From NCBI GenBank assembly GCA_016218785.1, contig JACRCY010000058.1, forward strand, positions 1-37,699: a DNA stretch of 37,699 bases, in the 5' to 3' direction. Below, in pieces: positions 10,217 through 37,074 of the stretch. Origin of the DNA: Deltaproteobacteria bacterium. Its GTDB lineage: Bacteria > Myxococcota_A > Polyangia > JACRCY01. The notes below the pieces were generated by a model. The model had not been told where the DNA came from, did no database searches, and worked only from the letters and a program-made list of their open reading frames with translations. The translations under genes were made by a program, and so were the position numbers. Every line of letters starts with the position of its first letter. Position 1 is the stretch's first letter.

Positions 10217-10228
10217 GGCTCGGGCTGC

Positions 10229-12152: not shown

Positions 12153-12167
12153 GAGTGACGCCGCCCG

Positions 12168-23993: not shown

Positions 23994-25343
23994 CTATGCA
24001 ATGGGCTCGACTTCGGCGAGGCCGAAGCGCAGCACGTAGGCGCGCGGCAGGCCGAGGCACCACCGCGTCTGCGAGCACTGAGCGCAGCGCTTCGCCTTCA
24101 CCCAGGGCTTGCGCGTGTCCTCGATGCCGATCTCGGCGTCCCGCTGGACCGGTACGGCGCCGCCCGCGGCCTCGTTGCCGCCGCCCCGGCGCCGCAGGCT
24201 GGCGTCGACGAGGCAGGCGGGAATCGACGCGTGCGACGAGCTGAGCAGCGGCTCGCACACGACGCCGATCGCGGAGGCGCGGCGCGCCGCCGCCTGGAGC
24301 TTGGGTGCGAGCTCCGTGTAGGCCACGAGCACGGCCGGGGCAGCGGGCCGGTGGTCCGGGCACATCGTGATCGAGAAATGGATGCGCGGGGGCCGGGGAC
24401 CGAAGAGCTGCGGCACGGCGCCGACCCACTCGTCGAGGTGGTCGACGTTGTGGCGGTTCACGACCAGGTTCAGCACCACGTCGTGCTGGGCGGCGAGGAG
24501 GTTGCGGATGCCGGCGACCGCGCGGTCGAACTGGCCGCTCGAGCCAACGCACAGGTCGTAGACGTCCGGCCGCGCACCGTGGAAGGAGACGAAGAAGGCC
24601 AGGCGACGCGAGGGCGGCCACGGTGGGAGCGCGGCGGCGTCGGCGAATCCTACGGCGTTGGTCTGGATCTTGACCTGCAGCAGCTCGGGCCGGGCGAGGA
24701 GTCGGTCGACGACCTCGGCGAGCCCTGGCCACAGGGTGGGCTCGCCGCCCGTGAGCGTCGCGATCATCCGCGGGAACTGCGTGACGGCTGCGTCGAGCCA
24801 CGCGAGCACCGCCTCGATGGTCGGCTCCGCGTGGGGCGGGGGGGCCGAGCAGAACGGGCACGCCTGGTTGCAGCGCGAGGTGAGGCGGAGGAGGACCTCC
24901 GTGGACACGGCCTCGCCGGTCGGGCTCACCAGCCGCTCGATGCCGCACCACGAGAAGCCGGCAGGGCCGGAGGCGCCGGTGGTCGCCGCGAGGGCGTCCA
25001 CCCCGACCTTCGCCTCGAGCACTCGCGGGAAGCCGGCCTCGAGGGCGCGCAGCACGCCCACGAGGTCGTGCAGCTGGCCGAGCTGGTTCGGGGACAGACG
25101 GGCGGATCCGCGGTAGCAGAGGCCGTAGCGCGCGGTGCGCAGGATGTACCTCCCCGCGGGATCCAGCGGCTTGACCTCGACCTCGAGCGGCCGGCTGCTG
25201 GTGCCGCGCAAGGTGAGCGTGAGCACCCCGTTGAGGGCTGAGGCAGACACGACCGCGACCCCGGCCCGCTCGGCCGCGGCCACCAGGGTCCGGAGCCAGG
25301 GCGGCCCCGCCGGCCGGGGCTCGCCAGCGTCCGCGGGGGTCAT
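23994..25343 (-). CDS. Radical SAM enzyme (CxxCx5CxG paralog family) with N-terminal shared module
   Basis: ORF 23994..26351 trimmed to ATG 25343 (MTPADAGEPRPAG), an ATGA overlap with the upstream stop. The shared module covers residues ~27-103 (25035..25265). Motifs: LRLTSRCNQACPFCS (CX3CX2C), TLTGGEPTLWPG, QTNAVG, C-terminal KRCAQCSQTRWCLGLP. Confidence 0.85.
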   Translation of the reverse strand: MTPADAGEPRPAGPPWLRTLVAAAERAGVAVVSASALNGVLTLTLRGTSSRPLEVEVKPLDPAGRYILRTARYGLCYRGSARLSPNQLGQLHDLVGVLRALEAGFPRVLEAKVGVDALAATTGASGPAGFSWCGIERLVSPTGEAVSTEVLLRLTSRCNQACPFCSAPPPHAEPTIEAVLAWLDAAVTQFPRMIATLTGGEPTLWPGLAEVVDRLLARPELLQVKIQTNAVGFADAAALPPWPPSRRLAFFVSFHGARPDVYDLCVGSSGQFDRAVAGIRNLLAAQHDVVLNLVVNRHNVDHLDEWVGAVPQLFGPRPPRIHFSITMCPDHRPAAPAVLVAYTELAPKLQAAARRASAIGVVCEPLLSSSHASIPACLVDASLRRRGGGNEAAGGAVPVQRDAEIGIEDTRKPWVKAKRCAQCSQTRWCLGLPRAYVLRFGLAEVEPIA

Positions 25344-27646
25344 GCGACCTCCGGGGACCATCTCGCGAGGGCCTCCGACTGGCGGTAGAGAGCTTCGAAC
25401 TCCTCGCGCCACAGACCGAGACAGAGCACGAGCTCGGTGCAAGCGCGGCAACGATCCACGTGCTTCGCCTTCAGTCGGCGCAGCTCGGGGAAGCTGAAGA
25501 ACGGGAGCGGCGCCGCGCGCTCGCGGAGCTCGGGCGGCAGGAGGCAGAACGGCACGCCCTGGATGGAGAGGTCCAGGCGCGGGAAGTCGCGCAGGACGGA
25601 CACGATCGTGGGCATTGCCGCCGGGAACGGGAGGATGTCGTCGCGGTTCTCCAGCACGTTCCCGCGCGGCGCGGGGTAGCGCAGGTGCACGGTGCGGATG
25701 CCGCGAGCCGCGAGCAGGTCGACGGTCTCCCCGACGACCGCCAAGCCGGCGCGAGTCAGGCGCACCGTGACCTCCACCGTGATCCCCTGCTGCGAGGCGT
25801 TGCGGATGCCGGCGAGGGTCTGGTGCCATGCCCCGGTGACGCCGGCCATGCGGTCGTGCTCGGCGGCCCCCGGCGCGTGCACCGACGTGACGACGCGGTC
25901 GATGCCCGCCTCGGCGAGGCCTTGCGCCAGGCGCAAGTAGCCGAGCATGCGACCGTTCGTGGCGAGCGTGACGTGCCGGTAGCCCACCGCGCGCGCCTCG
26001 CGCGCGAGGCACAGGAGGGTCTCGGGTCGCAGCGTCGGCTCGCCGCCCTTGACGAGGAGCTCCACGGCGCCCCGGCCATGTCGCTCGCGCATCAGGGCGA
26101 GCAGCTCCTCGTCCGACGGCGGGGTGGCGGCGGGGGCGGTGCGCTCGCAATGGAGGCAACGGCTGTTGCACGGGGCGCCGAGGTCGACGACCGCGAGTGT
26201 CTCGCGGGCGTCTATGAGGAACCGGGCGTTGCGCTTGAAGCGCAGCACCTCGGCGGGGGTGAAGTCCGGCGTGCGGATGACCGGACGCGTCTCGAGCTCG
26301 CAGAGGGGGATCGTGTCGGGGTGGGGATCGAACCACGACCGCGCCTCGCACTCCCGGTAGAGCGCCGTGCCGCGGAACGGGATGGCGTGCTGGATGAGGG
26401 GGAGCGCGCCGAGCTCCTCGTGGAGCATGGTGGCGAACTCGAGGGTGTTGTTGATCTGGGGCTTGGTCTCGCCCGGCAGGCCGATGACGTAGTGAACCTG
26501 GCTGGGGAGCCCGAGGTCACGGCACGTGCGCGCGACCCCGATGACCGCCTTGAGGTCGAGCCGCTTCTGCACGATGCTCCGCAGGACCTCGGGGTCGCCG
26601 GACTCGGCCGAGACCGTCACCTTGGCGTTGCCGGCCCGGCGCATGAGGGCGAGCGTCTCCGTCGTGAGGCCGTCGGCGCGGTAGCCGTTCACCGCGTCCC
26701 AGGCGATCCCCTCGGCGGCGAGGAGCTCCACGAGCTGCCGGAACCGCTCCGGATCCACGGAGATGTTGTTGTCGAGGAAGAAGACGCGGTCGGCCCGGTA
26801 CCGCGCCACCAGCTCGCGGATCATGGGGGCGAGGTACTCGACGGAGTGAGCGCGCCAGGGATGTCGCAGCACCTGCTGCGTGCAGAAGCTGCACGAGTAG
26901 ACGCAGCCGCGGCTCGTTAGCAGCGGGAGGAACCGTCCCGGGGCGTGGTACTCGTGCACGAGGTCCGTCCGTACCGCGTCGGCGATGCAGGAGAAGTACC
27001 GCTCCATGTCGAGCAGGTGGAAGGCCGGCGGGGGCAGCGCGTCGAGCGGGCGGGTCGGGGCCGCCGTGCCGGGGTTGAGCCGGGCCTGCCCGTCGGCCCG
27101 GAACGCGACCTCCGGGATCCCGTCGAGGGGAGCGCGCGCCGTCAGCCGGCGCAGCACCTCCACGAGCTTCGCGTCGCCCTCGCCGAGCACCACGGCGTCC
27201 AGCTCCGGGACCTGCTCGAGCAGCCGGACCGGGTCATACGGGAAGTAGTTCATGCCGCAGACGTGGCAGTCGGCCACCAGGAGCGCCGCCTGCGGGTGGC
27301 TGCGCCGGAGCGCGGTGGCCACTTCGCGTACGTAGGTCTCCCCGAGCCGGTGGAGGTCGGAGAACATCGTCGAGACGATGACCACCGCCTCGGCACCGTG
27401 CTCGGCCGTGGCTGCGGCGAGGTCGTCCAGCTCCACGCCGACGTGCATCACGTCGGTCTGGAGGGCGCGGCAGTTCAGCCGGTCGCGCAGGTAGTAGGCG
27501 TCGACCACGGCGCCGGCGAGTCCCGCCTGCTCCACGACGGCGGCGTTGTAGAGCATGCCGATGTTCGAGAAGGTCGGGTAGTGCGCGAAGACCCGCGGCA
27601 GCTTCACGGGCGGGTTCACGAACAGCACTCGCGGCGGGCTCGGCAT
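25340..27646 (-). CDS. Double radical SAM fusion: B12-binding rSAM plus second rSAM domain (CxxCx5CxG family)
   Basis: ORF 25340..27655; start taken at ATG 27646 (MPSPPRVLFVNPP), a TGATG overlap with the upstream stop. First motif: LLTSRGCVYSCSFC (26882..26905), with VSAESGDPEVL and VIGLPGETKPQ. Second motif: DLGAPCNSRCLHC (26147..26170), with LLVKGGEPTLRPE, TLATNG and C-terminal DRCRACTELVLCLGLW. Confidence 0.9.
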   Translation of the reverse strand: MPSPPRVLFVNPPVKLPRVFAHYPTFSNIGMLYNAAVVEQAGLAGAVVDAYYLRDRLNCRALQTDVMHVGVELDDLAAATAEHGAEAVVIVSTMFSDLHRLGETYVREVATALRRSHPQAALLVADCHVCGMNYFPYDPVRLLEQVPELDAVVLGEGDAKLVEVLRRLTARAPLDGIPEVAFRADGQARLNPGTAAPTRPLDALPPPAFHLLDMERYFSCIADAVRTDLVHEYHAPGRFLPLLTSRGCVYSCSFCTQQVLRHPWRAHSVEYLAPMIRELVARYRADRVFFLDNNISVDPERFRQLVELLAAEGIAWDAVNGYRADGLTTETLALMRRAGNAKVTVSAESGDPEVLRSIVQKRLDLKAVIGVARTCRDLGLPSQVHYVIGLPGETKPQINNTLEFATMLHEELGALPLIQHAIPFRGTALYRECEARSWFDPHPDTIPLCELETRPVIRTPDFTPAEVLRFKRNARFLIDARETLAVVDLGAPCNSRCLHCERTAPAATPPSDEELLALMRERHGRGAVELLVKGGEPTLRPETLLCLAREARAVGYRHVTLATNGRMLGYLRLAQGLAEAGIDRVVTSVHAPGAAEHDRMAGVTGAWHQTLAGIRNASQQGITVEVTVRLTRAGLAVVGETVDLLAARGIRTVHLRYPAPRGNVLENRDDILPFPAAMPTIVSVLRDFPRLDLSIQGVPFCLLPPELRERAAPLPFFSFPELRRLKAKHVDRCRACTELVLCLGLWREEFEALYRQSEALARWSPEVA

Positions 27647-29433
27647 CAACCCCACGTGCCCTCGTTGCGACGCAGGAGACCGACTACCTCCCGCATCAGA
27701 GCATCGAGCCCCGGGCCGCGCAGTGGCCTGGGCACGTCACCTTGGTAGTAGACGTTGAACCGCGAGGTGTGCGCGAAGCAGGGGCTCGCTGCGTTGCGGC
27801 GATCGAGGCGCACGCAGACGACCGCCTCTCCCGTGTGCCGCCCGAAGGTGAGCACGGCGACCCCGTCACCGTCGAGCAACGGCGTCAGCGCGCGGAGCAT
27901 CCACCCCGCCCGGAAGGCCCCCGGCACCCTCGGCGCGACGAGGCGGCGGAGATCGTCGGCCGGCCCGGGCGCTCTCGGGTCGTGGAGGGTGTAGGCCCCC
28001 TCGGGTCGCTTGACGAACAGCGGGCGGCACACGCGCAGCTTGTTGAGGTACGAGAGCGCGCGCTGCAGATCGATCCGCGGGAAGGTGCCGACCTCGAGGA
28101 CGTAGGGGATCCCGCGCCCGGGGACGCGGATGCCCAGCTCGGCGCGTCGTCGCCACAGCGTGGTGCCGGGGAAGACCTGGAGCAGCGACACCAGCACGGC
28201 CCCGATCGGCGACCCCGCAGGCTCCGCCGCCAGCTCCCCGAGGTAGTCCATGGTCCGCTGGAACCCGTCGAGCGTGTCACCCGGGAGCCCCAGCACCACG
28301 CCGACGACCGTCGGCGGCGACGCGGCCGGGTCCGGCGCCAGCCGCCGGAGCAGCCGCAGGGCCGCCTGGAAGCGGCCGCGGTCGAGGGGCTCCCGGTCGC
28401 TCTGCCGCATCGCGCCCTCGGACAGCGACTCCATCCCCAGGAGCACCTGCTGGGCCCGGAGCCGTCCCAGGAGCTCGACCTGCGCCGGCGTGAGCAGCTC
28501 GTGGCGGAGGTTGTACGTGTAGCGGAGCTCCCGCCCGGGGTCCGCGGCCTCGGCCGCGGCCACGAAGCGCTCGAGCGTGCTCTGCTCGTAGTTGATCGCC
28601 GAGTCGATCAGGGTGACGTGCCGCACCTCGTTCCTGAGCGCCCAGCGGAGCTCGTCGACGAGGCGTGCCTGCGAGAAGGCCCGGCGCGTCTTCGCCGAGT
28701 TCCAGGCGCAGTAGCCGCAGCGGTTGAGACACCCGCGCGACAGCTCCAGCATCATCCCCTCGGGCGCGGGTTGCACGATTCCGGCGAGGTAGGGCGACGG
28801 GATGGTATCGAGGTCCGCGACCAGCTCGGCCGGGGGGCCGCTGACCACGTCTCCCGACGGGCTGCGGCCGAAGACCCCCGGTGGCAGGTCGTGCGCGAGG
28901 GGGAGGCCGGTCGCGCGCCACCGGCCCAGCAGCTCGACGAAGGAGCGCTCGGCCTCCCCGCCGACGACGTGGTCCAGGGTCGCGTGATCGCGCAGAAGGG
29001 CCGGCGCCATGTCCTCGACGGCGCGGCCGCCGACGACGGTGAGCGTCTCGGGTCGCCGTTGCTTGAGCCGCGCACAGGCCTCGAGGATCGCGTCGACGTT
29101 CCAGCAGTAGGCCGAGAAGCAGACGGCGTCGGGATCGCCGGCGGCGAGTTGCTCCACGTGGCGCTCGCTGAGGCGGAACTCCTCGTGCGGTGCCTCGGTG
29201 TCGGCGGGCAACGAGTCGTCGACCAGATCGAAGATCTCGATGCGGCAGTCCCGCTGGATCTCCGGCGTGGCGTCGCCGGCGGCCTTCAGGTAGGCCGCGG
29301 CGAGGCTGTAGGGTGCCTGCGCGAGCGCATCCCCGTAGCCGCCGAGGCTTGGCGTCGGCCCGGCATCCGCGTCGACGAGGCGGCGATGCAGCCCCACGAT
29401 CCGCACGTGCGCCACCGGCCGGTCCGTGGTCAC
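27646..29433 (-). CDS. B12-binding radical SAM enzyme (LPSPYL paralog family) with C-terminal shared module
   Basis: ORF 27646..29676 trimmed to GTG 29433 (VTTDRPVAHVRIVG), a GTGA overlap with the upstream stop. Motifs: AVCFSAYCWNV, TVVGGRAVED, HVVGGEAERSF, LDTIPSPYL, ELSRGCLNRCGYCAW, LGMESLSEGAM, VLGLPGDTLDGFQRTMDYL. The C-terminal 87 aa (27649..27909) form the shared module. Confidence 0.9.
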   Translation of the reverse strand: MTTDRPVAHVRIVGLHRRLVDADAGPTPSLGGYGDALAQAPYSLAAAYLKAAGDATPEIQRDCRIEIFDLVDDSLPADTEAPHEEFRLSERHVEQLAAGDPDAVCFSAYCWNVDAILEACARLKQRRPETLTVVGGRAVEDMAPALLRDHATLDHVVGGEAERSFVELLGRWRATGLPLAHDLPPGVFGRSPSGDVVSGPPAELVADLDTIPSPYLAGIVQPAPEGMMLELSRGCLNRCGYCAWNSAKTRRAFSQARLVDELRWALRNEVRHVTLIDSAINYEQSTLERFVAAAEAADPGRELRYTYNLRHELLTPAQVELLGRLRAQQVLLGMESLSEGAMRQSDREPLDRGRFQAALRLLRRLAPDPAASPPTVVGVVLGLPGDTLDGFQRTMDYLGELAAEPAGSPIGAVLVSLLQVFPGTTLWRRRAELGIRVPGRGIPYVLEVGTFPRIDLQRALSYLNKLRVCRPLFVKRPEGAYTLHDPRAPGPADDLRRLVAPRVPGAFRAGWMLRALTPLLDGDGVAVLTFGRHTGEAVVCVRLDRRNAASPCFAHTSRFNVYYQGDVPRPLRGPGLDALMREVVGLLRRNEGTWG

Positions 29434-31280
29434 GTCGCCGTCTCGCGCTGGGGAACGTGGCGCCGCGGGGCACCTTCCCGCAGCAGGTGGAGCACCCACT
29501 GGTTGTTGGTCAGCGCCGACACGGGTCGATGGTAGATCGTGCGCAGCGAGTGGAGCCGGAGGAAGGGCGCCACCTCCCAGCTGTCCCAGTTGCGCAGGTG
29601 CTGGTGTCCGGCGCGCGGCTGCCGATCGGCGAAATCGACCTGCCCGGAATTCCGCAGCAGGGCGAACGGGACGCACTCGGCGATGAGGAGGGTCCCGAGC
29701 GGCCGGGTCAGGGCCACCATGCGGGAGAGAGCCTCGCGGACGTCGGTGACGTGGTTGAGGGCGCGCAGGCAGAGGACGTGGTCGAAGTAGCCCGCCGCGT
29801 GCTCGAACCGTTCGATCTCCCCGACGTGGTAGCGACCCTGGGGGATCGCGCGCCTGAGCTCACTCACGGCCGCCTCGTCCGGATCGAGGCCGTGGTACTC
29901 GACCAATCCGGCTTGCACGAGAGGGGCGAGCTGAGCACGGTACAGTTGCTCGCCGCAGCCGACGTCGAGGATGCGTCCGCGCAGCCGGTGTACCCAGCCG
30001 GCGATCCAGCGCTCCTCGCGGCGGAAAGGCGGCTCGTCGACCTCGCGGAACCGCCGCCCGCAGCGCTCCTTCCGATCGCATGGATCGCAGTACGGGTCCG
30101 GCGCCACGCGGCGGATCGAGTCGACGAAGTCGTCGAGAGCTGCCGTCGCCGAACGGTCGAGATAGAGGTGGCCGAAGTCGTGCTTCACCCGGCTCACCTC
30201 GCTCAGCGAGAAGTCTCCGGTGTCGGTCCGGTAGAGCGTCAGCTCGCCGTCGCCGGCGAGGAAGAGCGCGCGCGCCGGGTCGACTCCCGGAGCGCGATCG
30301 GCCGTACACGCCGCGGGGGTCGGGGCCAGGGGGAGGGTGACGTCCTGGCGCACGAAATTGAAGGAGTTGGCGATCACGCTTCGTGCCGGCACGTCCGCGG
30401 CTCGCGGCACGAACCCCTCGAAGGGAACGCCGCGGCAACGCCTCCGTGCCGGGCAGGCGTCGCAGTGGTCGGTCGGGTACGACGGCGGCCGCCCCCGGTC
30501 GCCGAGACACGTCGCGGAGGGAGCCGAGCGGACCCCTGACCAGGTGCGCCGCGAGGGCGGACGCGCCACGTGGCTGGGCGCGGTCACCAGGCAATCCGGC
30601 AGCCCCTCCCAGACGAGGAGCGGGCGGAACGATTGGTGGTTCCAGCGCGCGAGGGCGTCCACCGCGCGTTGCAGGGTCACGACGTGGTCGGCCCCGGAGC
30701 CGAGGCCGGCCACGCTCAGGAGGAGGTGGTGATCGGGCGTCGAGAGGAGCGCGGCGAGGTGATCGACCATCGCCGGTGCGTCGGCGAGCGTGTCGGGGGA
30801 GAGGGCCAGGGAGACATCGAGGCTGGCATCCGCCGCGGCGCCCTCGTCCTCCAGCGCGCGCAGCCCGTCGAGGGTCTGGCGAAAGGAGCCCGGGACGCGC
30901 GTCACCTGGTCGTGTGACTCCTCCCAGCCGAAGAGCTGGACGCGCAGGTAGGCGAGCCCGGCGTTGCCCAGGCGCCGCCGCGCCTCGGGGTAGCAGAGCG
31001 CCCGCCCGTTGGTCACCAGCCCCGGCAGGAGCCCGGCCTCCCGGATGCGTCGCAGCAGGCCGAACACGTCGTGGCGGACGAACGGCTCACCGCCCACGAG
31101 CACGGCGAGTTGCCCCGCGTCGCCCTCCCGCCGCGCCTCGGACCGCCGCTGCAAGGCGCGCGGGATCTGCCCCGCGACGAGGCCCGGCGGCGCCGTCGCC
31201 GCGTCCACGGGACAGATCGTGCAGCGGCAGTTGCAGGCCGGGCCCACCCACAGCCAGGCCGAATCGGCGTCGGGCCTCAC
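29430..31280 (-). CDS. Radical SAM (CxxCx5CxG family) fused to a class I SAM-dependent methyltransferase
   Basis: 616-aa ORF with GTG start at 31280. N-terminal part: WVGPACNCRCTICP (CX3CX2C), VLVGGEPFVRHD, VTNGRAL, DHCDACPARRRCRGVP. C-terminal part (about 29601..30008): GRILDVGCGEQ (motif I), YHGLDPD, FDHVLCLRALNHV, TRPLGTLLIAE. The linker between them may hold a divergent shared module (30102..30374). Confidence 0.85.
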   Translation of the reverse strand: MRPDADSAWLWVGPACNCRCTICPVDAATAPPGLVAGQIPRALQRRSEARREGDAGQLAVLVGGEPFVRHDVFGLLRRIREAGLLPGLVTNGRALCYPEARRRLGNAGLAYLRVQLFGWEESHDQVTRVPGSFRQTLDGLRALEDEGAAADASLDVSLALSPDTLADAPAMVDHLAALLSTPDHHLLLSVAGLGSGADHVVTLQRAVDALARWNHQSFRPLLVWEGLPDCLVTAPSHVARPPSRRTWSGVRSAPSATCLGDRGRPPSYPTDHCDACPARRRCRGVPFEGFVPRAADVPARSVIANSFNFVRQDVTLPLAPTPAACTADRAPGVDPARALFLAGDGELTLYRTDTGDFSLSEVSRVKHDFGHLYLDRSATAALDDFVDSIRRVAPDPYCDPCDRKERCGRRFREVDEPPFRREERWIAGWVHRLRGRILDVGCGEQLYRAQLAPLVQAGLVEYHGLDPDEAAVSELRRAIPQGRYHVGEIERFEHAAGYFDHVLCLRALNHVTDVREALSRMVALTRPLGTLLIAECVPFALLRNSGQVDFADRQPRAGHQHLRNWDSWEVAPFLRLHSLRTIYHRPVSALTNNQWVLHLLREGAPRRHVPQRETAT

Positions 31281-31531: not shown

Positions 31532-33538
31532 GTGAGCCGCCGCGACGCCAGCAGCCCGGGCGGGCGTGCCGTCCTGCAGGGCAAGACGCTGGTCGGCGGT
31601 CCCCGGAGTCGCGCGCACTTCGCGGCCCTGCTCGGCCTGGACCGGGTCGCCCCTCTCGGGCAGACCCGCGTCGTCGCCGTCGCCTGGGTCGGCGATCACG
31701 TCGAGATCGAAGTCGCCGGGGTGGACGACCAGAGCGTGGTCTTCTTCCTCGACCGGTTTCAGGCCGACAAGCCACGGCTCTTCGCCACCGAGCACCTGGT
31801 GCTCTACTACCGCGGCGTCGGCATGTGGCCGGAGCTCGAGGAGCGGCTGCGCGCCGTCGAGCTCGGGCGCCTCGGGGAGCGCACCATCGAGGACCTCGCC
31901 GAGTTGATCGCCGCGGACACGGACGTCGACCCGGCCCACGACCGCCCGCCGCGCGTCAGCGCCGAGGGGCAGGACGCCTTCGACCGCCAGTCGCACCTCA
32001 GCACCTGGGCCTCGCCCCACGTCTGGTACCAGTTCTTCGGCGTCGCCGAGATCTGGCGGCAGCGACTCGACTCGCTCGACATCTTCGAGCGGTGCACCTT
32101 CATCCAGCACTGTGACCGCGAGTGCGTGCAGGTCGCGCCGCGCACGTACGTGCCGATGGTCGACGGAGTGTTCTACCCCTGGCTCGAGCGGGTGCGGCGG
32201 ATCGGCCGCGCGCGTCGACGCCCCTCTCCCGCTGTGGGCTCGGCCGCGACCCGGCCGCGGGGAACCGGTGAGCCGTTCGTGGACGATCCGAAGCACTCGA
32301 TGTGCACGACGGACATCACCGAGGCGGACGTGATCCTCGGCTCGCAGGAGAAGCTCGTGCGCGTCCTCGACGACGTGCTGGAGCGCGGCGTGGATCGCAC
32401 GCTGTTCCTGAGCTGCACGTGCGTCCCGTTCGTGACGGGAGAGGACGTGGAGTCGATCGTCAAGCGCTACCGGGCGAAGACCGATCGGCCCTTCTTCTAC
32501 CTCACGACCACCCCGCAATCGAGCGTGGGGGTGTTCCGGGACGTGCTGGTGCACCGGCGCCGGGCGGCCGAGCAGGCGGTCCCGCCCGGCGAGGTGACGC
32601 CGCACGCCGTCAACCTCGTCGGCTTCGCGCGGGATCCGGGGCTCGAGGAGCTCCGGGGGCTGCTCGCCCAGCTGGGGGTCAGTGTCAACGCCGTGTTCGT
32701 CCCCGAGATGGACTCCGCGGTCGTCGACACCCTGCCCCGAGCGTCGCTCCACGTGCTGTACCCGAACGTCCTGTGGCAGAGCATCTACGACCAGCTCCTC
32801 TTCGACTCGCGCATCACCGCGGTCTCGCCGGCGGCGCCGTACGGCGTGGCGGGGACGCAACGATGGCTCGAGAACGTGGCCGCGGCCGTGGGCCTGACGG
32901 TGACGGCTGGCGACGTCGTCGCGCGGGGTCTGGAGCCGCTCCGAGGGGTGTGGGACCGACTGAGGGCCGAGGCCGCCGGCACGCGGCTGGCGTTCGTGGT
33001 GGGCGCGGACGAGGCCTACCGCCTGGGCGACGCCACCACGACCTGGGGCGTGCCGCTGATCCCGATGCTCGAGGAGATGGGCTTCGGGCTCGAGGTCCTC
33101 ATCGGCGTCGCCGATCGTACGGCCGCGCGCGACGTGGCGACGCAGATCAACGCGGTGTTCGCCCACCCGGAGCGCCACGGCATCAGGGCGTTCCGTGACC
33201 GCGCTCGGCTCGACTCGCTCCTCGAGTCGGGGACGTTCGCCGCGGTCTACTCCGATCACCTCTTCGACCGTCGCCTGACCGCGGCGGGCAAGGCGCAGTT
33301 CAGCCTCCAGGAGTTCGAGAAGGGGGTCGGGGGGGCGGTCCGGACCCTCCGCCGCCTGCTGGAGGTGTGCCGGCTGCCGCTGTACCGCCGGTACCGGCGC
33401 CACCTGCCGGCCGCGGCCCAGCCCTACGCCGCGCCCATAACGCGTGGCACGAGGCGAGGGGGCCGCGAGGGGCTCGCGGGGCCGGGCGGTCCCGACAAGC
33501 TCACGGGCCCAGGCGCCCTGGTGGATGGACGACGGTGA
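31532..33538 (+). CDS. Nitrogenase component-1-type oxidoreductase family protein (NifD/NifE/BchN-like) with N-terminal shared module
   Basis: 668-aa ORF; GTG 31532 directly follows GGAGGGGAG. The shared module covers residues ~45-127 (31664..31912). The core reads FIQHCDRECVQ, then SMCTTDITEADVILGSQEKLVRVLDDVLERGVDRTLFLSCTCVPFVTGEDVESIV. This matches the sT.l.E.d.vfGG..kL...i.v..tC....iGDD pattern, followed by Rossmann-like VNLVGF and LAFVVGAD segments. Confidence 0.75.
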   Translation: MSRRDASSPGGRAVLQGKTLVGGPRSRAHFAALLGLDRVAPLGQTRVVAVAWVGDHVEIEVAGVDDQSVVFFLDRFQADKPRLFATEHLVLYYRGVGMWPELEERLRAVELGRLGERTIEDLAELIAADTDVDPAHDRPPRVSAEGQDAFDRQSHLSTWASPHVWYQFFGVAEIWRQRLDSLDIFERCTFIQHCDRECVQVAPRTYVPMVDGVFYPWLERVRRIGRARRRPSPAVGSAATRPRGTGEPFVDDPKHSMCTTDITEADVILGSQEKLVRVLDDVLERGVDRTLFLSCTCVPFVTGEDVESIVKRYRAKTDRPFFYLTTTPQSSVGVFRDVLVHRRRAAEQAVPPGEVTPHAVNLVGFARDPGLEELRGLLAQLGVSVNAVFVPEMDSAVVDTLPRASLHVLYPNVLWQSIYDQLLFDSRITAVSPAAPYGVAGTQRWLENVAAAVGLTVTAGDVVARGLEPLRGVWDRLRAEAAGTRLAFVVGADEAYRLGDATTTWGVPLIPMLEEMGFGLEVLIGVADRTAARDVATQINAVFAHPERHGIRAFRDRARLDSLLESGTFAAVYSDHLFDRRLTAAGKAQFSLQEFEKGVGGAVRTLRRLLEVCRLPLYRRYRRHLPAAAQPYAAPITRGTRRGGREGLAGPGGPDKLTGPGALVDGRR

Positions 33539-34905
33539 GCGAGCCGACGCACGGGGCGGCAGGACCCGAGGGGGTGGCCCCGTCGAACGCGGCCGACTGG
33601 TCGGACCGCGTCTCGCTCACCTTCACCATCGGCGTCTACGTCGCGATCAACGCGCTGCGCGACGCGTACTGCATCGTGGACGGACCCGACTGCGCCCACC
33701 TGAAGACCCAGTTCCTGCAGGGCAACCACGACTGGCTCGCCGACCTGACGAGCGTCACCGGGGTCCACCGCATCGCCAACACCGACCTGCACCCCTGGAA
33801 GATGGTGCTGGGTCGCGACGAGGCGGTGGAGGGGTTCCTGCGCCAGATGGCGAGCTTCGACGGGGCCGCGGCGGTCCTCATCACGTCGCTGCCCATGGCG
33901 ACGATCACCGGGCTCGACTACGACCGCGTCACGCGCACGGTCGGCCTCGAGACCGGCACGGTGGTCGCGAGCGTGCCGAGCGCCTCGCTCGCCGGCGACT
34001 GGCTCGACGGCTACGCCGCGACGCTCAAGACGCTCGCGCGGGCCGTGGACCTGGACGGCGCGGCGCCGCAGCCGGGCAACGTCGCCGTGGTCGGATACCT
34101 GCTGGACCGGCACGAGGGGGACCACCGGGCGAACCTGGCCGAGATGCGTCGCCTCCTGGAGGGGCTCGGGCTGCGCCTGGGATCGGTGTGGCTGTCGGGG
34201 GGCAGCGTCGCCGAGTTGGGCGAGGTGCGGCACGCGAGCGCGATCGTCTCGCTGCCCTACGGCCGCGAGGCCGCGACGATCCTGGCCCGCCGGCTCGGGC
34301 TGCCGCTCATCGAGACGGGGCTGCCGCTCGGCCTCGACGGCACGGAGCGATGGCTGCGGCAGCTCGCGGAGCCACTCGGATGCGCCGACCGCGTCGACCA
34401 GGTCGTCGCGCCCGAGCTCGCGCGTGCCGTGCCCAGCATCGAGTGGGTGGTGCCGTACCACCTGTTGCACCGACGCGTGGTCTTCGTCGGGGACCCTCAC
34501 CTGGGTCTCGCCCTCGACGAGGCGGCGGGTGAGGTCGGGCTGACGGTCGAGCGCCATGTGATCCTCAACCGCCGGGGCCACGCCGAGGCGCTCCTCCGCC
34601 GCTGCGGCGAGGAGCGGGTCGTCCTCGACCCCAAACGGAACACGCTGCAGCAGGTCCTGGCGCCGCTGTTCCACGACGGTGGCTGCGACCTCCTGGTGAC
34701 GAGCAGCCTGGGGGTGACACCAGGCCTGGGAGGGGCCGCCATCGTCGAAGTCGGGTTCCCGTCCTTCTTCACGCACGCGCTCGAAGACCGGCCGTTCCTC
34801 TTCTTCCGCGGCTTCGTCGCGCTCGTCGAGCGGATGGTGAACGAGCTGCGCCGGGCGGAGCTGACCGCTTCGCTGCTCGGCGAGACTCCTGGCCCGGCTG
34901 ACTAG
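33535..34905 (+). CDS. Nitrogenase component-1-type oxidoreductase family protein (NifK/NifN/BchB-like), divergent
   Basis: Frame of ORF 33367..34905 trimmed to GTG 33535 (VSEPTHGAAG), a GTGA overlap with the upstream stop. Motifs: GVYVAINALRDAYCIVDGPDCAHLK (HGxxGC-like position), IANTDLHPWKMVLGRDEAVEGFL, AAVLITSLPMATITGLDYDRV (the usual Cys and GDD are replaced), NVAVVGYLL, RVVFVGDPHLGLAL. Confidence 0.7.
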   Translation: MSEPTHGAAGPEGVAPSNAADWSDRVSLTFTIGVYVAINALRDAYCIVDGPDCAHLKTQFLQGNHDWLADLTSVTGVHRIANTDLHPWKMVLGRDEAVEGFLRQMASFDGAAAVLITSLPMATITGLDYDRVTRTVGLETGTVVASVPSASLAGDWLDGYAATLKTLARAVDLDGAAPQPGNVAVVGYLLDRHEGDHRANLAEMRRLLEGLGLRLGSVWLSGGSVAELGEVRHASAIVSLPYGREAATILARRLGLPLIETGLPLGLDGTERWLRQLAEPLGCADRVDQVVAPELARAVPSIEWVVPYHLLHRRVVFVGDPHLGLALDEAAGEVGLTVERHVILNRRGHAEALLRRCGEERVVLDPKRNTLQQVLAPLFHDGGCDLLVTSSLGVTPGLGGAAIVEVGFPSFFTHALEDRPFLFFRGFVALVERMVNELRRAELTASLLGETPGPAD

Positions 34906-36422
34906 AAATCGTGGACGAAGTAGGGCCGGTCGCGGCTCTCGACCCAACGCGCGAAGACCTCCTCGCGGAGCCGCTCGTCCCCCGCGCCGAGCAACTGGAA
35001 GAGGTGGTCCATGAGGCCCATGTGGATCCGGCACTTCTGGTTGTCGGCCATCCGGCCGAAGATGTTCCCCTGCGTCGAGTAGTTGAAGACCGGGCAGGTG
35101 CCGCAGAAGGGCAGGTAGGCGCAGTCGGCGCAGCCGGGCAGCCCCTCGAGGCACGAGGCCAGCGCCACCGAACGGACGACCGGGCTCTCGATGAGATCGC
35201 CGTAGCCATCGTGTTCCAGGTTCCCGATCTGGAAGACCGAGTCGCCCATCTGGTGGAGCATGCGCGCCTCGTCGCAGCAGAAGACGGCGCCGTCGAAGCT
35301 GTAGGCGATCTGGCCGATCCCCGCCCCGCAGGGCGAGCGGATGTCGAGGTAGTTGGGGTCGTCGCCGGTGAGGATCTTCACCAGGAAGATGGTCGCCAGC
35401 CGCTCCAGGATCTCCTTGCCCTCGAGGTTGAGCGCGATGATGTAGTCGAGCGCCTCGCGGTGGAAGGCCAGGAACTCCTCGGCGCCGTAGCCGATGCGGC
35501 CCGCCGTCTTGCGCGCGAAGCCGAAGGGGTTCAGCGGCCGGAGGAAGACCGCCTTGAGCCCGCGCTTCACGTACTCGTCGACGATGTCGCGGGCGCGCCC
35601 CAGCGACTGGCGCGTGACCGTGAGCAACGCCTCGACGTGGTAGAGCGCCGGGTCGAGGCCGCGGTCCAGGTACCCCTGGTCGATGCGCTCCATCCAGCGC
35701 AGCGTCGCGGCGTGGGAGTTGCCGTGCGCCAGGGGGCGGTTGGCGTTGTGGAGATCCTCGGGGCCGTCGAGCGACGTGCAGACCTGGATGCCGTGATCCA
35801 GGATGAAGGCGAGCTTCTCGTCGTCCATCAGGCTCAGGTTGGAGACGAGCGAGAAGGCCAGGGTCTTGCGCACCGTGGCGTTGAGCTCGAGCGCCTTCTC
35901 TACGGTGTGGCGGACGACGGCGAAGTTCGCGAGCGGCTCGCCGCCCTGGAACTCGAGGGTGATGGAGGGGGCCGGGGTCTGCATGGCCACCTGCACCGCC
36001 CGCTCGGCGACCTCGGGGGACATGTCGAACTCGGTCGCGTCCATCGGCCGGCGGCTGGCGTGGCAGTAGACGCAGGCCTGGTTGCAGCGGAGCGAGGTGA
36101 TGAGCACGTGGAGGTAGGGGCCCAGGCCGAGGAACGCCTTGCGCTGGGCGAGCTGCGCGGTCCGTTCCTCCTCCCCCTGTCCTCCCTGGAGGAACCCGGC
36201 CTCGAGGAGGCGCGTGCGGAGGTTCCCGTCCGGCGCGAAGTTGCCGGAGACCAGCTGCTCGAACTCCGCCTCGCTCAGGAGCTGGTAGGAGCCGCCGTCG
36301 TTCGTCAGCAGCACCTGGCCGCCGAGGTGGCGGAAGCGGAAGTGGTTGCTGCGCTGGAGGCCGGGGTACCCGGAGGCGGGTGGCGCCACGCCGAGCGGGG
36401 CCGGGCGGTCGGGCGCGGTCAT
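34902..36422 (-). CDS. Radical SAM / SPASM-domain maturase, AnSME family, HxsB-like N-terminus
   Basis: ORF 34902..36938 trimmed to ATG 36422 (MTAPDRPAPLG), an ATGA overlap with the upstream stop. N-terminal region: NHFRFRHLGGQVLLTNDGGSYQLLSEAEFEQLVSGN. rSAM motif: ITSLRCNQACVYCHAS, with LEFQGGEPLAN. SPASM cysteines: SPCGAG..DGAVFCCDE and LPGCADCAYLPFCGTCPV. Confidence 0.88.
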   Translation of the reverse strand: MTAPDRPAPLGVAPPASGYPGLQRSNHFRFRHLGGQVLLTNDGGSYQLLSEAEFEQLVSGNFAPDGNLRTRLLEAGFLQGGQGEEERTAQLAQRKAFLGLGPYLHVLITSLRCNQACVYCHASRRPMDATEFDMSPEVAERAVQVAMQTPAPSITLEFQGGEPLANFAVVRHTVEKALELNATVRKTLAFSLVSNLSLMDDEKLAFILDHGIQVCTSLDGPEDLHNANRPLAHGNSHAATLRWMERIDQGYLDRGLDPALYHVEALLTVTRQSLGRARDIVDEYVKRGLKAVFLRPLNPFGFARKTAGRIGYGAEEFLAFHREALDYIIALNLEGKEILERLATIFLVKILTGDDPNYLDIRSPCGAGIGQIAYSFDGAVFCCDEARMLHQMGDSVFQIGNLEHDGYGDLIESPVVRSVALASCLEGLPGCADCAYLPFCGTCPVFNYSTQGNIFGRMADNQKCRIHMGLMDHLFQLLGAGDERLREEVFARWVESRDRPYFVHDF

Positions 36423-37039
36423 GGCGCCTCGCCTCCGGTTCCCTTCTTGGCGTCGTCGGTGGCGGTCGCGGCGGCCGGCGCCGCGGCGTGATCGGTCGCG
36501 GGGGCGCTCGGCGCCTCGGCTGGCGGGGTCGCGGCCGGATCGGCCTTGCCGGCGAAGCGCTGCTCCCACGGCACGCCGATACCGAGCGGATCGGCGAAGA
36601 AGTCGTCCTCCTCCCCGGGTACGTCGGGCGAGCCGGCGAGCTCCTTGTCGAGGTGCTCGACCTCGTCGGCGCCCACCCCTTCGTCTGCGGCGGCGTCGCG
36701 GCCCTCGGGGACGGCGCCGAAGAGCGCCCGCGCCATGATGCTCTCTCGCGCCTTCTCGTGCTGCTGGTCGACGTAGTGCCTCAACGCCTGGCTCAGGAGC
36801 TCGTTCTGGAAATCGGCGGCCACGGTCGTCGGCTCGGCGACCGCACCCCCGGCCTTCGGCGACAGCGAGACCCTGACCTTGCCCTCGACCGGCTTGTCGA
36901 GGAACACGTACCAGCGGTCGACGAAGACGTAGCCGCAACCGAAGATCGCGGCGAGCGGGTAGACGGAGAGATCAACGGTGAAATCGACGCTCCCGTTCGG
37001 CGCAGCCGACACCGAAACGCCGTCAGTCAGTTCCAGCAT
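36419..37039 (-). CDS. HxsD-like small protein with ~100-aa acidic, Pro/Ala-rich C-terminal tail
   Basis: 206-aa ORF with ATG 37039. The N-terminal ~105 aa (VDLSVYPLAAIFGCGYVFVDRWYVFLDKP..VRVSLSPK..FQNELLSQALRHYVDQQHEKARESIMARALFG) fit my recollection of the HxsD family pattern (Y..a...aaY.f.d..y..l; F.nellDq.lR). The tail reads DEGVGADEVEHLDKELAGSPDVPGEEDDFFADPLGIGVPWEQRF..PPAEAPSAPATDHAAAPAAATATDDAKKGTGGEAP. Confidence 0.6.
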   Translation of the reverse strand: MLELTDGVSVSAAPNGSVDFTVDLSVYPLAAIFGCGYVFVDRWYVFLDKPVEGKVRVSLSPKAGGAVAEPTTVAADFQNELLSQALRHYVDQQHEKARESIMARALFGAVPEGRDAAADEGVGADEVEHLDKELAGSPDVPGEEDDFFADPLGIGVPWEQRFAGKADPAATPPAEAPSAPATDHAAAPAAATATDDAKKGTGGEAP

Positions 37040-37045
37040 GCTCAG

Positions 37046-37074
37046 ACTATGGGTTGGCGTCTTTTCTCTGTCAA
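37046..37074 (-). promoter_or_regulatory. Sigma70-like promoter candidate for the HxsD-like/SPASM operon, possibly giving a leaderless mRNA
   Basis: Minus strand reads TTGACA (37074..37069), 17 nt, CATAGT (37051..37046), then 6 nt (CTGAGC) and ATG (37039). It sits in a locally AT-richer patch. Confidence 0.35.

What the first reader, a model, noticed from the sequence alone, without database searches (positions are those of the whole stretch)
34902..37039. HxsD-like/HxsB-like pair without an HxsA peptide; long acidic tail as candidate substrate or docking arm
An ATGA-coupled pair resembles the HxsD plus rSAM/SPASM maturase core of His-Xaa-Ser systems. However, I find no ORF with His-Xaa-Ser repeats anywhere in the window, and the operon ends head-on against the nitrogenase-like genes. 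The HxsD-like protein is roughly double the expected size. Residues ~105-206 are low-complexity and acidic, contain one conserved-looking island (EEDDFFADPLGIGVPWEQRF), and end in an Ala/Pro/Thr-rich stretch (PPAEAPSAPATDHAAAPAAATATDD). The tail could be the modified substrate, like a leader-domain-fused core peptide. It could also be a flexible arm recognised by the shared modules.
Basis: partly seen in the sequence, partly recalled or inferred. Interest (0 to 1): 0.66.

Follow-up and report, generated by a model that had tools for sequence, protein, structure and literature searches.

The report
Long-tailed HxsD with HxsB maturase
This gene pair is the core of a widespread but unstudied myxobacterial version of the His-Xaa-Ser peptide-maturation system; its HxsD helper protein carries a floppy acidic arm with a near-invariant short motif, and the "missing" His-Xaa-Ser target protein is encoded on another contig of the same genome bin.

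Summary
hxsD-like (36419-37039, minus strand, 206 aa) and hxsB (34902-36422, minus strand, 506 aa) overlap in ATGA. No His-Xaa-Ser repeat occurs in any frame of the window.

The tail is not peculiar to an orphan pair. It defines a large clade of tailed HxsD: 147 of the top 150 profile hits and every complete gene in 80 genomic loci, mostly Myxococcota. Its island, DPxGIxVPWE(E/D)K(Y/F), is better conserved than the HxsD core.

32 of 81 related loci carry an (HGS)n HxsA4 gene. So the tail does not replace HxsA. NCBIfam already models this system's other parts (HxsA4, HxsD-like).

The same MAG encodes an 11-repeat HxS protein with a Tat-like signal (HY906_08990) on a 20.4-kb contig. Close relatives show the same split layout. 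The pair is therefore orphan only at contig level.

Best reading: HxsB modifies HxsA4 supplied in trans. The HxsD core is a non-catalytic adaptor. The arm is a tethered docking motif whose partner is unknown, with HxsB or the small HxsD-like paralog as candidates. Tail-as-substrate is not excluded but is less likely.

Novelty: a new variant of a known kind. Interest: moderate.

The parts
36419..37039 (-). hxsD-like gene, 206 aa: a tailed HxsD
   Evidence: TIGR03976 49.8 bits (cut-off 50), E 3e-13. hhalign to canonical HxsD gives 91.7% probability. The ATG at 37039 matches the N-termini of homologues P0002-P0005.
36707..36976 (-). HxsD core, residues 22-111: a small alpha/beta fold (strand-strand-helix-strand-strand-helix-helix)
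   Evidence: AlphaFold2 pLDDT 96-98. Best Foldseek PDB matches are RNA polymerase subunit Rpb11/L (E 4e-4, TM about 0.5), then ACT-like and YbjN/ExsC chaperone-like folds. Y27, N79, E80, L81 and R87 are nearly invariant.
36614..36706 (-). Variable acidic linker, residues 112-142
   Evidence: 10 Asp+Glu against 2 Lys+Arg. Conservation 0.19. pLDDT 56-78 with one predicted helix at 124-136.
36554..36613 (-). Conserved island, residues 143-162 (EEDDFFADPLGIGVPWEQRF); family consensus D(Y/F)LDDPLGIAVPWE(E/D)K(Y/F)
   Evidence: D150, P151, L152, G153 and I154 are invariant in A1. The island is present in every complete gene of the 80 genomic loci and in 147 of 150 top profile hits, six of them with two copies. 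Selection acts on the protein, not the DNA. It is found only in HxsD-like ORFs.
36422..36553 (-). Variable Ala/Pro/Thr-rich C-terminal tail, residues 163-206
   Evidence: 75% Ala/Pro/Thr/Gly. Conservation 0.14; 7-118 residues long in relatives and Lys-rich in low-GC members. pLDDT 50-68.
34902..36422 (-). hxsB, a radical SAM/SPASM maturase of 506 aa
   Evidence: TIGR03978 527.7 bits (cut-off 370). 40% identical to HxsB of an Aeromonas salmonicida plasmid. CX3CX2C at residues 113-120 and nine C-terminal Cys for auxiliary clusters.
36419..36422 (-). ATGA overlap of the hxsD stop and the hxsB start (translational coupling)
   Evidence: Read directly from the sequence. The same 4-nt overlap occurs in relative L085.
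37046..37074 (-). Sigma-70-like promoter TTGACA-17-CATAGT. The -10 element ends 7 nt before the ATG, so the mRNA is probably leaderless.
   Evidence: This is the only promoter-like site in 34700-37699; 0.0 are expected from shuffles. The leaderless start is an inference.
34902..34905 (.). Overlapping stop codons (CTAG) of hxsB and the convergent nifN-like gene; no intergenic terminator
   Evidence: Read directly from the sequence. No terminator-like site was found.
25340..27655 (-). Probable accessory maturase: a 771-aa fusion of a B12-binding radical SAM domain and an HxsC-like radical SAM domain
   Evidence: The C-terminal half covers HxsC model positions 15-289 of 292, but at only 70.6 bits (cut-off 267.9); HxsC4 scores 67 bits against a cut-off of 500. 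All six related loci with a homologue scoring at least 100 bits carry HxsA4. In L085 a 770-aa homologue directly follows hxsB.
29430..31280 (-). Probable accessory maturase: a 616-aa radical SAM plus class I methyltransferase fusion
   Evidence: Domains. Homologues scoring at least 100 bits occur in 10 related loci, 9 of which carry HxsA4.

Best explanation
The pair is the hxsD-hxsB core of the Myxococcota-type His-Xaa-Ser system. NCBI calls this variant "type 4"; its target is HxsA4, a protein with a Tat-like signal that ends in 10-25 His-Gly-Ser repeats.

**Shown**
- HxsB is an intact equivalog-level radical SAM/SPASM enzyme.
- The HxsD core is a small, non-enzymatic alpha/beta interaction fold.
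- The tail belongs to the whole clade.
- The same MAG encodes an 11-repeat HxS protein on another contig.

**Inferred**
- HxsB, with other radical SAM enzymes of the cluster, modifies that HxsA4-like protein supplied in trans.
- HxsD acts as an adaptor or chaperone, as E. coli HxsD does. There it is required for HxsA processing and binds HxsC.
- The acidic disordered arm carries a short linear motif, DPxGIxVPWE(E/D)K(Y/F). The motif folds on binding and tethers HxsD to a conserved partner.
- The most likely partners are HxsB, or the small HxsD-like paralog that lies between the two genes in most relatives. In this way the arm would keep adaptor, enzyme and substrate together.
For: **Identity of the pair.** Family scores, hhalign to canonical HxsD, 40% identity to canonical HxsB and intact Fe-S cysteine motifs.

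**The clade.**
- 126 relatives were found among GTDB species genomes. In the 80 loci kept, hxsB lies next to hxsD on the same strand in 79 of 83.
- The profile search found 944 clusters at E <= 1e-10.

**The tail is a family feature.**
- The island is present whether or not HxsA4 is nearby.
- Canonical HxsD ends exactly where the tail begins.

**Known parts of the system.**
- The (HGS)n proteins score 97-106 bits on NF038313 HxsA4 (cut-off 55).
- The small ORFs score 42-73 bits on NF038315 HxsD-like (cut-off 41).
- A separate small HxsD-like ORF is present in 74 of 80 loci, and in 68 of these it lies between hxsD and hxsB.

**Substrate in trans.**
- HY906_08990 carries the same locus-tag prefix as the window's HY906_02935. 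It is 131 aa, has an RRDF signal and contains 11 HxS repeats.
- L085 to L087 show the same split layout: an ATGA-coupled D-B pair on one strand, and two HxsA4 genes, an HxsD-like gene and a radical SAM gene on the other.
- Homologues of the window's 771-aa and 616-aa radical SAM proteins occur almost only in loci that carry HxsA4.

**Docking rather than chemistry.**
- The island sits between unconserved, length-variable, disordered stretches.
- Its pLDDT of 73-80 is typical of a segment that folds on binding.
- Six homologues carry two copies.
- The core fold resembles dimerisation and chaperone modules.
- HxsD is an interaction partner in E. coli (PMC13128918).
Against: - No binding partner was tested. 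A complex prediction could not be run here, and coordinates of the monomer model are not available.
- Residues conserved only in type-4 HxsB lie in the catalytic core. They do not form an obvious basic patch that could receive an acidic motif.
- HY906_08990 scores only 42.8 bits on the HxsA4 model (cut-off 55), and only over the repeat part. Its contig could not be retrieved. Binning errors are possible.
- 49 of 81 related loci have no HxS gene within about 10 kb. A role independent of HxsA therefore cannot be excluded.
- Multi-copy islands and strict conservation would also fit a cofactor-like substrate.
Confidence: 0.55

Rival explanations
1. The tail is itself the substrate. The HxsD core would act as a large leader domain, and HxsB would install a cross-link in the island, for example Trp-Lys or Tyr/Phe-Lys within PWEEKY. 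The product would be a conserved protein-borne or released cofactor-like molecule.
For: - The island is as invariant as the cores of cofactor-type RiPPs, and it holds Trp, Lys and Tyr/Phe at fixed spacing.
- Six homologues have two islands, like multi-core precursors.
- Many loci have the pair with no HxS gene within 10 kb.
- hxsD and hxsB are translationally coupled.
Against: - The island is equally present in every locus that has a bona fide HxsA4 substrate.
- HxsB is an equivalog of canonical HxsB, whose partner HxsD has no tail.
- The island has no His/Ser motif like the modified SHRSS (PMC13128918) and no Cys.
- It is internal, not C-terminal, and is followed by 7-118 variable residues.
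- No protease or exporter is conserved nearby.
Confidence: 0.12
2. In this subclade the pair has been recruited by the large radical SAM and nitrogenase-like cluster. It would act on a non-HxsA target, such as another protein or peptide of that pathway or a step in metallocluster maturation. The HxS protein elsewhere in the MAG would be unrelated to it.
For: - The window holds about 13 radical SAM genes and a NifE/N-like pair, and hxsB abuts the latter.
- The closest relative, L002/L004, also has NifH-like and NifE/N-like genes next to the pair.
- Modules of the 1242-aa radical SAM protein also recur beside the pair in L001 and L002.
- The window, L001 and L004 have no HxS gene and form one clade in the HxsB tree.
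Against: - The nitrogenase-like association is limited to two species out of more than 80.
- The sister lineages L006, L007 and L085 keep HxsA4.
- The accessory radical SAM types in the window are the ones that travel with HxsA4 elsewhere.
- The MAG does encode an HxS-repeat protein.
- The contig is cut inside a gene at its left end, so the cluster is incomplete.
Confidence: 0.15
3. The arm does not recruit an enzyme. Either it is an intramolecular lid that occupies the peptide-binding surface of the HxsD core until substrate arrives, or it is an acidic shield. As a shield it would keep the His-rich HxsA4 soluble and export-competent, and away from nucleic acid, before Tat export.
For: - The tail has a net charge of about -16.
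- HxsA4 proteins carry RR signals.
- The island's pLDDT of 73-80 in a monomer model could reflect packing on the core.
- The fold resembles secretion-chaperone-like YbjN/ExsC.
Against: - Sequence-specific invariance of a 12-residue motif is more than charge shielding would need.
- The charge of the flanking tail is not conserved; it is Lys-rich in low-GC members.
- No contact information was available to test packing on the core.
Confidence: 0.15

Closest known systems
Canonical HXS antiphage system of Pseudomonadota (hxsD-hxsB-hxsC-hxsA; TIGR03976-03979; Li et al., Nat Commun 2026, PMC13128918)
   Same: - HxsB is an equivalog (527.7 bits; 40% identity).
- The HxsD core is homologous (hhalign 91.7%), and the Arg of the LLNDYxLRE motif (R87) and the Tyr of the LYW motif (Y27) are conserved.
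- hxsD comes directly before hxsB.
- The target is a protein with tandem His-Xaa-Ser repeats that is exported after radical SAM-dependent maturation.
   Different: - HxsD here carries a 95-residue arm with an invariant motif; the canonical protein is 96 aa with no tail.
- There is no true HxsC (70.6 bits against a cut-off of 267.9).
- The target is of the HxsA4 kind: no peptidoglycan-binding domain, 10-25 HGS repeats at the C-terminus and a Tat-like signal.
- Here the target is encoded on another contig.
- The system sits among many extra radical SAM genes.
- An antiphage role is untested for this variant.
NCBIfam "type 4" His-Xaa-Ser parts: HxsA4 (NF038313), HxsD-like protein (NF038315), HxsC4 (NF038332)
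   Same: Related loci contain proteins that pass the HxsA4 and HxsD-like cut-offs. These lie next to tailed hxsD and hxsB. The window's pair belongs to that clade.
   Different: - The window has none of the three.
- The MAG's HxS protein falls below the HxsA4 cut-off (42.8 against 55).
- No paper in the searched library mentions these models.
- The one HxsD model that matches the protein here, TIGR03976 (90 positions), aligns only to the core (residues 22-106), so it does not capture the tail or its motif.
Small peptide-presenting partners of radical SAM/SPASM enzymes (PqqD with PqqE, MftB with MftC)
   Same: A small non-catalytic protein is encoded next to, and works with, a SPASM maturase acting on a ribosomal peptide or protein. 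This comparison rests on general knowledge, not on a test made here.
   Different: The HxsD fold matches Rpb11-like and chaperone-like alpha/beta folds, not the winged-helix RRE. None of those partners is known to carry a tethered conserved motif on a disordered arm.
Disordered tails with a terminal docking motif, such as the acidic C-terminal tip of bacterial SSB
   Same: An acidic, low-complexity, length-variable linker carries a short, strongly conserved acidic and hydrophobic motif. This is an analogy from general knowledge.
   Different: The motif here is internal, unrelated in sequence, and has no known partner. No PDB chain matches it.
Leader-domain-fused RiPP precursors (NHLP and Nif11-type)
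   Same: A folded N-terminal domain of about 90-100 residues is followed by a C-terminal extension and is encoded next to a radical SAM maturase.
   Different: - Those cores are C-terminal, hypervariable and preceded by a Gly-Gly cleavage site, with a cognate peptidase-exporter.
- Here the conserved element is invariant and internal.
- No peptidase or exporter is conserved nearby.

Membership tests
Canonical His-Xaa-Ser (HXS) system | HxsB radical SAM/SPASM maturase (TIGR03978) | tested here: met
   527.7 bits against a cut-off of 370, over the full model. CX3CX2C and SPASM cysteines are present.
Canonical His-Xaa-Ser (HXS) system | HxsD small protein (TIGR03976) with LYW and LLNDYxLRE motifs | tested here: inconclusive
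   49.8 bits against a cut-off of 50 (E 3e-13). hhalign gives 91.7%. The Tyr (Y27) and Arg (R87) equivalents are conserved, but the Asp position is Ser here. The protein is twice the canonical length.
Canonical His-Xaa-Ser (HXS) system | HxsC second radical SAM maturase (TIGR03977) next to HxsB | tested here: not met
   The best scores in the window are 70.6 bits (cut-off 267.9), in genes 7-11 kb away. phmmer with canonical HxsC gives at most 27 bits.
Canonical His-Xaa-Ser (HXS) system | HxsA with tandem His-Xaa-Ser repeats in the same locus (order D-B-C-A) | tested here: not met
   No H-x-S tandem of two or more occurs in any frame of the window. An (HxS)11 protein exists on another contig of the same MAG.
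Canonical His-Xaa-Ser (HXS) system | Antiphage defence phenotype | not testable with these tools
   PADLOC 2023 gives only generic radical SAM similarity. No defence-island or mobile-element context is seen in the window.
Type-4 His-Xaa-Ser variant (NCBIfam HxsA4, HxsD-like, HxsC4) | Clade membership of the hxsD-hxsB pair | tested here: met
   The pair groups inside the clade of 80 loci, of which 32 carry HxsA4-type genes and 74 carry HxsD-like genes.
Type-4 His-Xaa-Ser variant (NCBIfam HxsA4, HxsD-like, HxsC4) | HxsA4 repeat protein (NF038313) | tested here: inconclusive
   Absent from the window. The MAG's HY906_08990 scores 42.8 bits against a cut-off of 55, over the repeat region only. By eye it has the RR signal, the HCSHxSHGS repeats and the terminal HGSW of the L007/L085 type.
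Type-4 His-Xaa-Ser variant (NCBIfam HxsA4, HxsD-like, HxsC4) | Small HxsD-like protein (NF038315), usually between hxsD and hxsB | tested here: not met
   A local profile finds it in 74 of 80 loci but finds nothing in the window's six frames (best E 3.7). It is also missing at that position in the window's nearest relatives L001, L005, L007 and L010.
Type-4 His-Xaa-Ser variant (NCBIfam HxsA4, HxsD-like, HxsC4) | HxsC4 radical SAM protein (NF038332) | tested here: not met
   The best score in the window is 67 bits against a cut-off of 500. Relatives also reach only 86-126 bits.
Leader-domain-fused RiPP precursor | C-terminal variable core after a cleavage motif, with a cognate peptidase or exporter | tested here: not met
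   The island is invariant and internal. No peptidase or transporter is found in the window or conserved in the loci.

The most novel reading that the evidence does not exclude
The invariant island is not a passive tether. One possibility is that it is a self-contained radical SAM substrate, making tailed HxsD a protein-borne or released cross-linked cofactor precursor. The other is that it is a hub motif through which one adaptor hands a His-Gly-Ser repeat protein in turn to many radical SAM enzymes. In this 13-enzyme cluster with a nitrogenase-like scaffold, that would produce a heavily tailored, metal-binding, Tat-exported product unrelated to phage defence.
Probability: 0.12. Interest if true: 0.8.

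Novelty: new variant of a known kind. Interest (0 to 1): 0.5.

Why it matters
The HXS system was shown only in 2026 to be an antiphage barrier. That survey searched by HxsA and placed 99.7% of systems in Pseudomonadota.

The clade found here is large and essentially unstudied:
- 126 GTDB species genomes hold a relative, and the profile search finds 944 protein clusters at E <= 1e-10.
- HxsC is absent.
- A second small HxsD paralog is present.
- The targets are (HGS)n proteins with a Tat-like signal.
- HxsD carries a near-invariant motif on a disordered arm.

That motif is a ready-made handle for asking how HxsD-type adaptors organise radical SAM maturases, which the E. coli work could not resolve in vitro.

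The result also shows that "orphan" maturase pairs in MAG contigs should be checked against the rest of the bin before being called substrate-less.

Tried and rejected
- **Complex prediction.** No multimer or fusion trick, and no HxsB model, could be made.
- **Contig of the HxS protein.** The 20.4-kb contig of HY906_08990 is not on record in the look-up of encoding contigs.
- **Island fused to other domains.** The protein search needs at least 40 aa. A 55-aa double-island query collected only 25 candidates, all short fragments from contig ends.
- **Island against PDB sequences.** No match at E <= 10.
- **HxsB against PDB sequences.** Only the radical SAM core aligned, to CteB and anSME. The N-terminal roughly 105 residues stay unassigned.
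- **Residues specific to type-4 HxsB.** The 14 positions found lie in the catalytic and SPASM parts, and none suggests a docking site.
- **Small precursor-like ORFs.** A search of the window's intergenic gaps found nothing convincing.
- **Open ORF at the right end.** The ORF at 37253-37699 is a polytopic membrane protein, not HxsA.
- **PADLOC.** Only generic viperin-like radical SAM similarity.
- **Literature on the nitrogenase-like and radical SAM association in Myxococcota.** Nothing relevant.
- **Correction to an early count.** First-pass clustering found the small HxsD-like ORF in only about 23 loci. A dedicated profile corrected this to 74 of 80.

Full report
**1. What is in the window**

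The window is 72% GC and is an entire 37,699-nt contig of a MAG labelled "Deltaproteobacteria bacterium". The HxsD-like protein is NCBI MBI5477782.1, locus tag HY906_02935. Third-position GC analysis gives 23 genes.

The two genes of the finding lie on the minus strand:
- hxsD-like: 36419-37039, 206 aa.
- hxsB: 34902-36422, 506 aa.

The hxsD stop and the hxsB start share ATGA, with a GGAGG upstream. The only promoter-like site in 34700-37699 is TTGACA-17-CATAGT at 37074-37046. Its -10 element ends 7 nt before the ATG at 37039, so the mRNA is probably leaderless (the leaderless start is an inference). At the other end, the hxsB stop overlaps the stop of the convergent nifN-like gene in CTAG at 34902-34905, with no terminator-like site.

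**2. Checking the observation**

- HxsB scores 527.7 bits on TIGR03978 (cut-off 370).
- The HxsD-like protein scores 49.8 bits on TIGR03976 (cut-off 50, E 3e-13) over residues 22-106. This 0.2-bit shortfall explains why NCBI names it "hypothetical protein".
- A profile of 126 relatives aligns to a canonical 96-aa HxsD from an Aeromonas salmonicida plasmid with 91.7% probability. Window residues 25-113 match canonical residues 7-92, so the canonical protein ends where the tail begins.
- HxsB has CX3CX2C at residues 113-120 and nine C-terminal cysteines. It is 40% identical to the canonical enzyme.
- The tail (residues 112-206) has 22 acidic and 6 basic residues and no Cys. Its last 44 residues are 75% Ala/Pro/Thr/Gly.
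- No tandem of two or more H-x-S occurs in any frame.

**3. The tail is a family feature, not a peculiarity of an orphan pair**

The first protein search found 14 relatives at 34-76% identity. All carry the island.

A scan of one genome per GTDB species found 126 relatives, of which 80 loci were kept. Nearly all are uncultured Myxococcota; a few are Omnitrophota, Spirochaetes or Bradymonadales. Every complete HxsD-like gene in these loci carries D(Y/F)L(D/E)DPLGIA(V/I)PWE(E/D)K(Y/F). One of the two scan patterns was the island itself, so that count is biased towards it. An independent full HMMER search of 1.84 billion representatives removes much of this concern:
- It gave 2104 hits at E <= 1e-3 and 944 at E <= 1e-10.
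- 147 of the top 150 carry the island or an obvious variant.
- Six carry two copies.

Conservation, measured as the mean frequency of the commonest residue, varies along the protein:

| Region | Conservation |
|---|---|
| Island | 0.68 |
| HxsD core | 0.52 |
| Linker | 0.19 |
| C-terminal tail | 0.14 |

Across genomes of 34-75% GC, the island's codons are 95% identical at positions 1+2 and 45% at position 3. Selection therefore acts on the peptide, not on an RNA or DNA element. The motif occurs in no other ORF of the 83 loci or of the window.

**4. The system these genes belong to**

hxsB lies next to the tailed hxsD on the same strand in 79 of 83 loci. 32 of 81 loci carry an H-x-S repeat gene, usually about 200 nt after hxsB. 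These proteins have an N-terminal Lys-rich or RR (Tat-like) leader, then HCSHGS(HGS)n, and end in HGSW.

NCBIfam already has models for parts of this system:
- The repeat proteins score 97-106 bits on NF038313 "HxsA4" (cut-off 55).
- A small ORF scores 42-73 bits on NF038315 "HxsD-like protein" (cut-off 41).

A local profile finds the small paralog in 74 of 80 loci, and in 68 of these it lies exactly between the tailed hxsD and hxsB. The usual core is therefore tailed hxsD, then hxsD-like, then hxsB, with HxsA4 often following.

True HxsC is absent throughout; the best phmmer score against canonical HxsC is 57 bits. The radical SAM genes nearby resemble the "rare" HxsC4 model only weakly, at 86-126 bits against a cut-off of 500.

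No paper in the library mentions HxsA4, HxsC4 or the HxsD-like model. The 2026 Nat Commun study surveyed by HxsA and reported 99.7% of systems in Pseudomonadota, with the order D-B-C-A.

**5. Is the pair really orphan?**

In a neighbour-joining tree of HxsB, the presence of HxsA4 follows clades, and the basal clades have it. The window groups with L004 and L001, which have no HxS gene. The sister lineages L006 and L007 do have one.

I searched the protein database with L007's HxsA4. The fourth hit is "HY906_08990 [Deltaproteobacteria bacterium]", MBI5478978.1, 131 aa, on a 20,416-nt contig. It carries the same MAG locus-tag prefix as the window. Its sequence has an RRDF signal region and 11 HxS repeats ending in HGSW. 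On the HxsA4 model it scores 42.8 bits (cut-off 55), matching only the repeat part. I could not retrieve its contig.

Relatives of that protein clarify the layout (L085-L087):
- An ATGA-coupled tailed hxsD-hxsB is followed by a 770-aa radical SAM gene on one strand.
- A few kb away on the other strand lie two HxsA4 genes, an HxsD-like gene and a 314-aa radical SAM gene.
- Glycosyltransferase and sugar-modifying genes are nearby.

The window has the same half-architecture. It also holds homologues of the accessory radical SAM proteins that elsewhere travel almost only with HxsA4:
- For the 771-aa protein, all 6 loci with a homologue scoring at least 100 bits carry HxsA4.
- For the 616-aa protein, 9 of 10 such loci do.

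The contig is also cut inside a gene at its left end. The pair is therefore orphan at contig level only.

**6. What the HxsD protein looks like**

AlphaFold2 on the 126-sequence alignment gives these regions:

| Region | Residues | pLDDT | Predicted structure |
|---|---|---|---|
| Core | 8-108 | 96-98 | strand-strand-helix-strand-strand-helix-helix |
| Linker | 112-142 | 56-78 | one helix at 124-136 |
| Island | 143-162 | 73-80 | short helical turns |
| C-terminal tail | 163-206 | 50-68 | none predicted |

Foldseek against the PDB finds RNA polymerase subunit Rpb11/L first (E 4e-4, TM about 0.5). ACT-like domains and YbjN/ExsC chaperone-like proteins follow. These are small interaction or dimerisation modules, not enzymes. 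This fits the E. coli data, where HxsD is required for HxsA processing and pulls down with HxsC.

**7. How it most likely works**

Shown: the identities, the intact catalytic motifs, the clade-wide arm and motif, and an HxS-repeat protein in the same MAG.

Inferred: HxsB, helped by the cluster's HxsC-like radical SAM enzymes, modifies the HxS repeats of the protein supplied in trans before Tat export. HxsD is the adaptor. Its arm is a tethered short linear motif that folds on binding.

The arguments for docking rather than chemistry are:
- The island is present with or without a local HxsA4.
- It is absent from canonical HxsD, although HxsB is equivalent.
- It lies between unconserved, length-variable segments.
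- It occurs twice in some proteins.
- It has an intermediate pLDDT.
- It has none of the His, Ser or Cys chemistry seen in the studied system.
- No peptidase or exporter accompanies it.

The partner is unknown. HxsB and the small HxsD-like paralog are the only near-universal neighbours. An Rpb11-like fold also suggests that the two HxsD paralogs might form a heterodimer; that is speculation. I could not test any interface, and residues specific to type-4 HxsB gave no hint.

**8. Rivals**

- (a) **The tail as substrate.** This is not excluded: the island is invariant and has a W-x-x-K-Y/F pattern, some proteins carry two islands, and many loci have no local HxS gene. It is disfavoured for the reasons above.
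- (b) **Recruitment by the nitrogenase-like and radical SAM cluster to a non-HxsA target.** The NifE/N-like pair recurs next to the pair in L002/L004, there with a NifH fragment. But this is only two species out of more than 80.
- (c) **The arm as an intramolecular lid or acidic shield for the His-rich target.** This would fit the chaperone idea of the E. coli authors, but it does not explain the sequence-specific invariance.

**9. Verdict**

This is a member of a known kind of system, His-Xaa-Ser maturation. The variant has database models for some of its parts but no literature. One feature appears undescribed: the disordered arm with the DPxGIxVPWE(E/D)K(Y/F) motif on HxsD.

I rate it a new variant of a known kind, with interest about 0.5.

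Noticed in passing
window 1-31280: The window holds about 13 radical SAM genes, at least 9 of them with B12-binding domains and several as fusions. Examples are a 771-aa B12-radical SAM plus HxsC-like fusion, a 616-aa radical SAM plus methyltransferase fusion, and a 1242-aa multidomain protein. A DUF362-ferredoxin protein and a beta-propeller protein are also present. The gene at 1-1092 is cut by the contig end, so the cluster is incomplete.
   Followed up: partly
window 31532-34905; L002 1-3611: A NifE/N-like pair (Oxidored_nitro) converges on hxsB, and the first gene has a 250-residue N-terminal extension. The window has no NifH, but the closest relative L002 has a NifH fragment directly upstream of the orthologous pair. 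The association with hxsD-hxsB was seen in only two species.
   Followed up: partly
window 37046-37074: A sigma-70-like promoter lies so close to the hxsD ATG that the transcript would be leaderless. It is the only promoter-like hit in 3 kb, where shuffles give 0.0.
   Followed up: no
window 34902-34905: The stop codons of the convergent hxsB and nifN-like genes overlap in the palindrome CTAG. There is no intergenic space and no terminator-like hairpin.
   Followed up: no
L009 10429-10644, L022 10424-10651, L060 10502-10726 and 65 other loci: A second, 70-85-aa HxsD paralog (NF038315 "HxsD-like protein") sits exactly between the tailed hxsD and hxsB in 68 of 80 related loci. It is missing from the window and its nearest relatives, lies after hxsB in L004, and lies next to HxsA4 in L006, L085 and L087.
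   Followed up: yes
P0063, P0109, P0112, P0116, P0138, P0147; P0079, P0088, P0122: Some tailed HxsD homologues carry two copies of the island. Others have a 70-150-residue N-terminal Lys/Ala/Pro-rich, histone H1-like extension.
   Followed up: partly
L019 12054-12473, L068 12283-12708, L085 8916-9829, P0167: HxsA4-type proteins have 10-25 His-Gly-Ser repeats at the very C-terminus and always end in HGSW (or HGQW/HGSY). They start with either a Lys-rich LPKLKKK leader or an RRDF(L/I) Tat-like signal. L085 and L009 carry two tandem copies.
   Followed up: partly
window 5781-11494; L085 2285-6808: Two polytopic membrane proteins with no family match, a family-2 glycosyltransferase and an NDP-sugar dehydrogenase lie inside the cluster. 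Relative L085 also has GT2 and sugar epimerase/aminotransferase genes beside its Hxs genes. This hints that glycosylation is part of the pathway.
   Followed up: no
window 12168-15896; L001 8582-19586; L002 9999-12972: The N-terminal domain and the radical SAM domain of the 1242-aa protein occur as separate genes right next to hxsD-hxsB in L001 and L002. These modules therefore travel with the pair in this subclade.
   Followed up: partly
window 11683-12240 (minus strand): An unassigned ORF just downstream of the 1242-aa gene ends in a Cys- and Trp-rich stretch (…CADGEWYDACYG…FRCCCTWR). Its coding signal is weak (GC3 0.75), and it was not examined further.
   Followed up: no
L019 12554-14353: A 599-aa HxsC4-like radical SAM protein that follows HxsA4 carries an internal (NGARNGS)n low-complexity repeat.
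   Followed up: no
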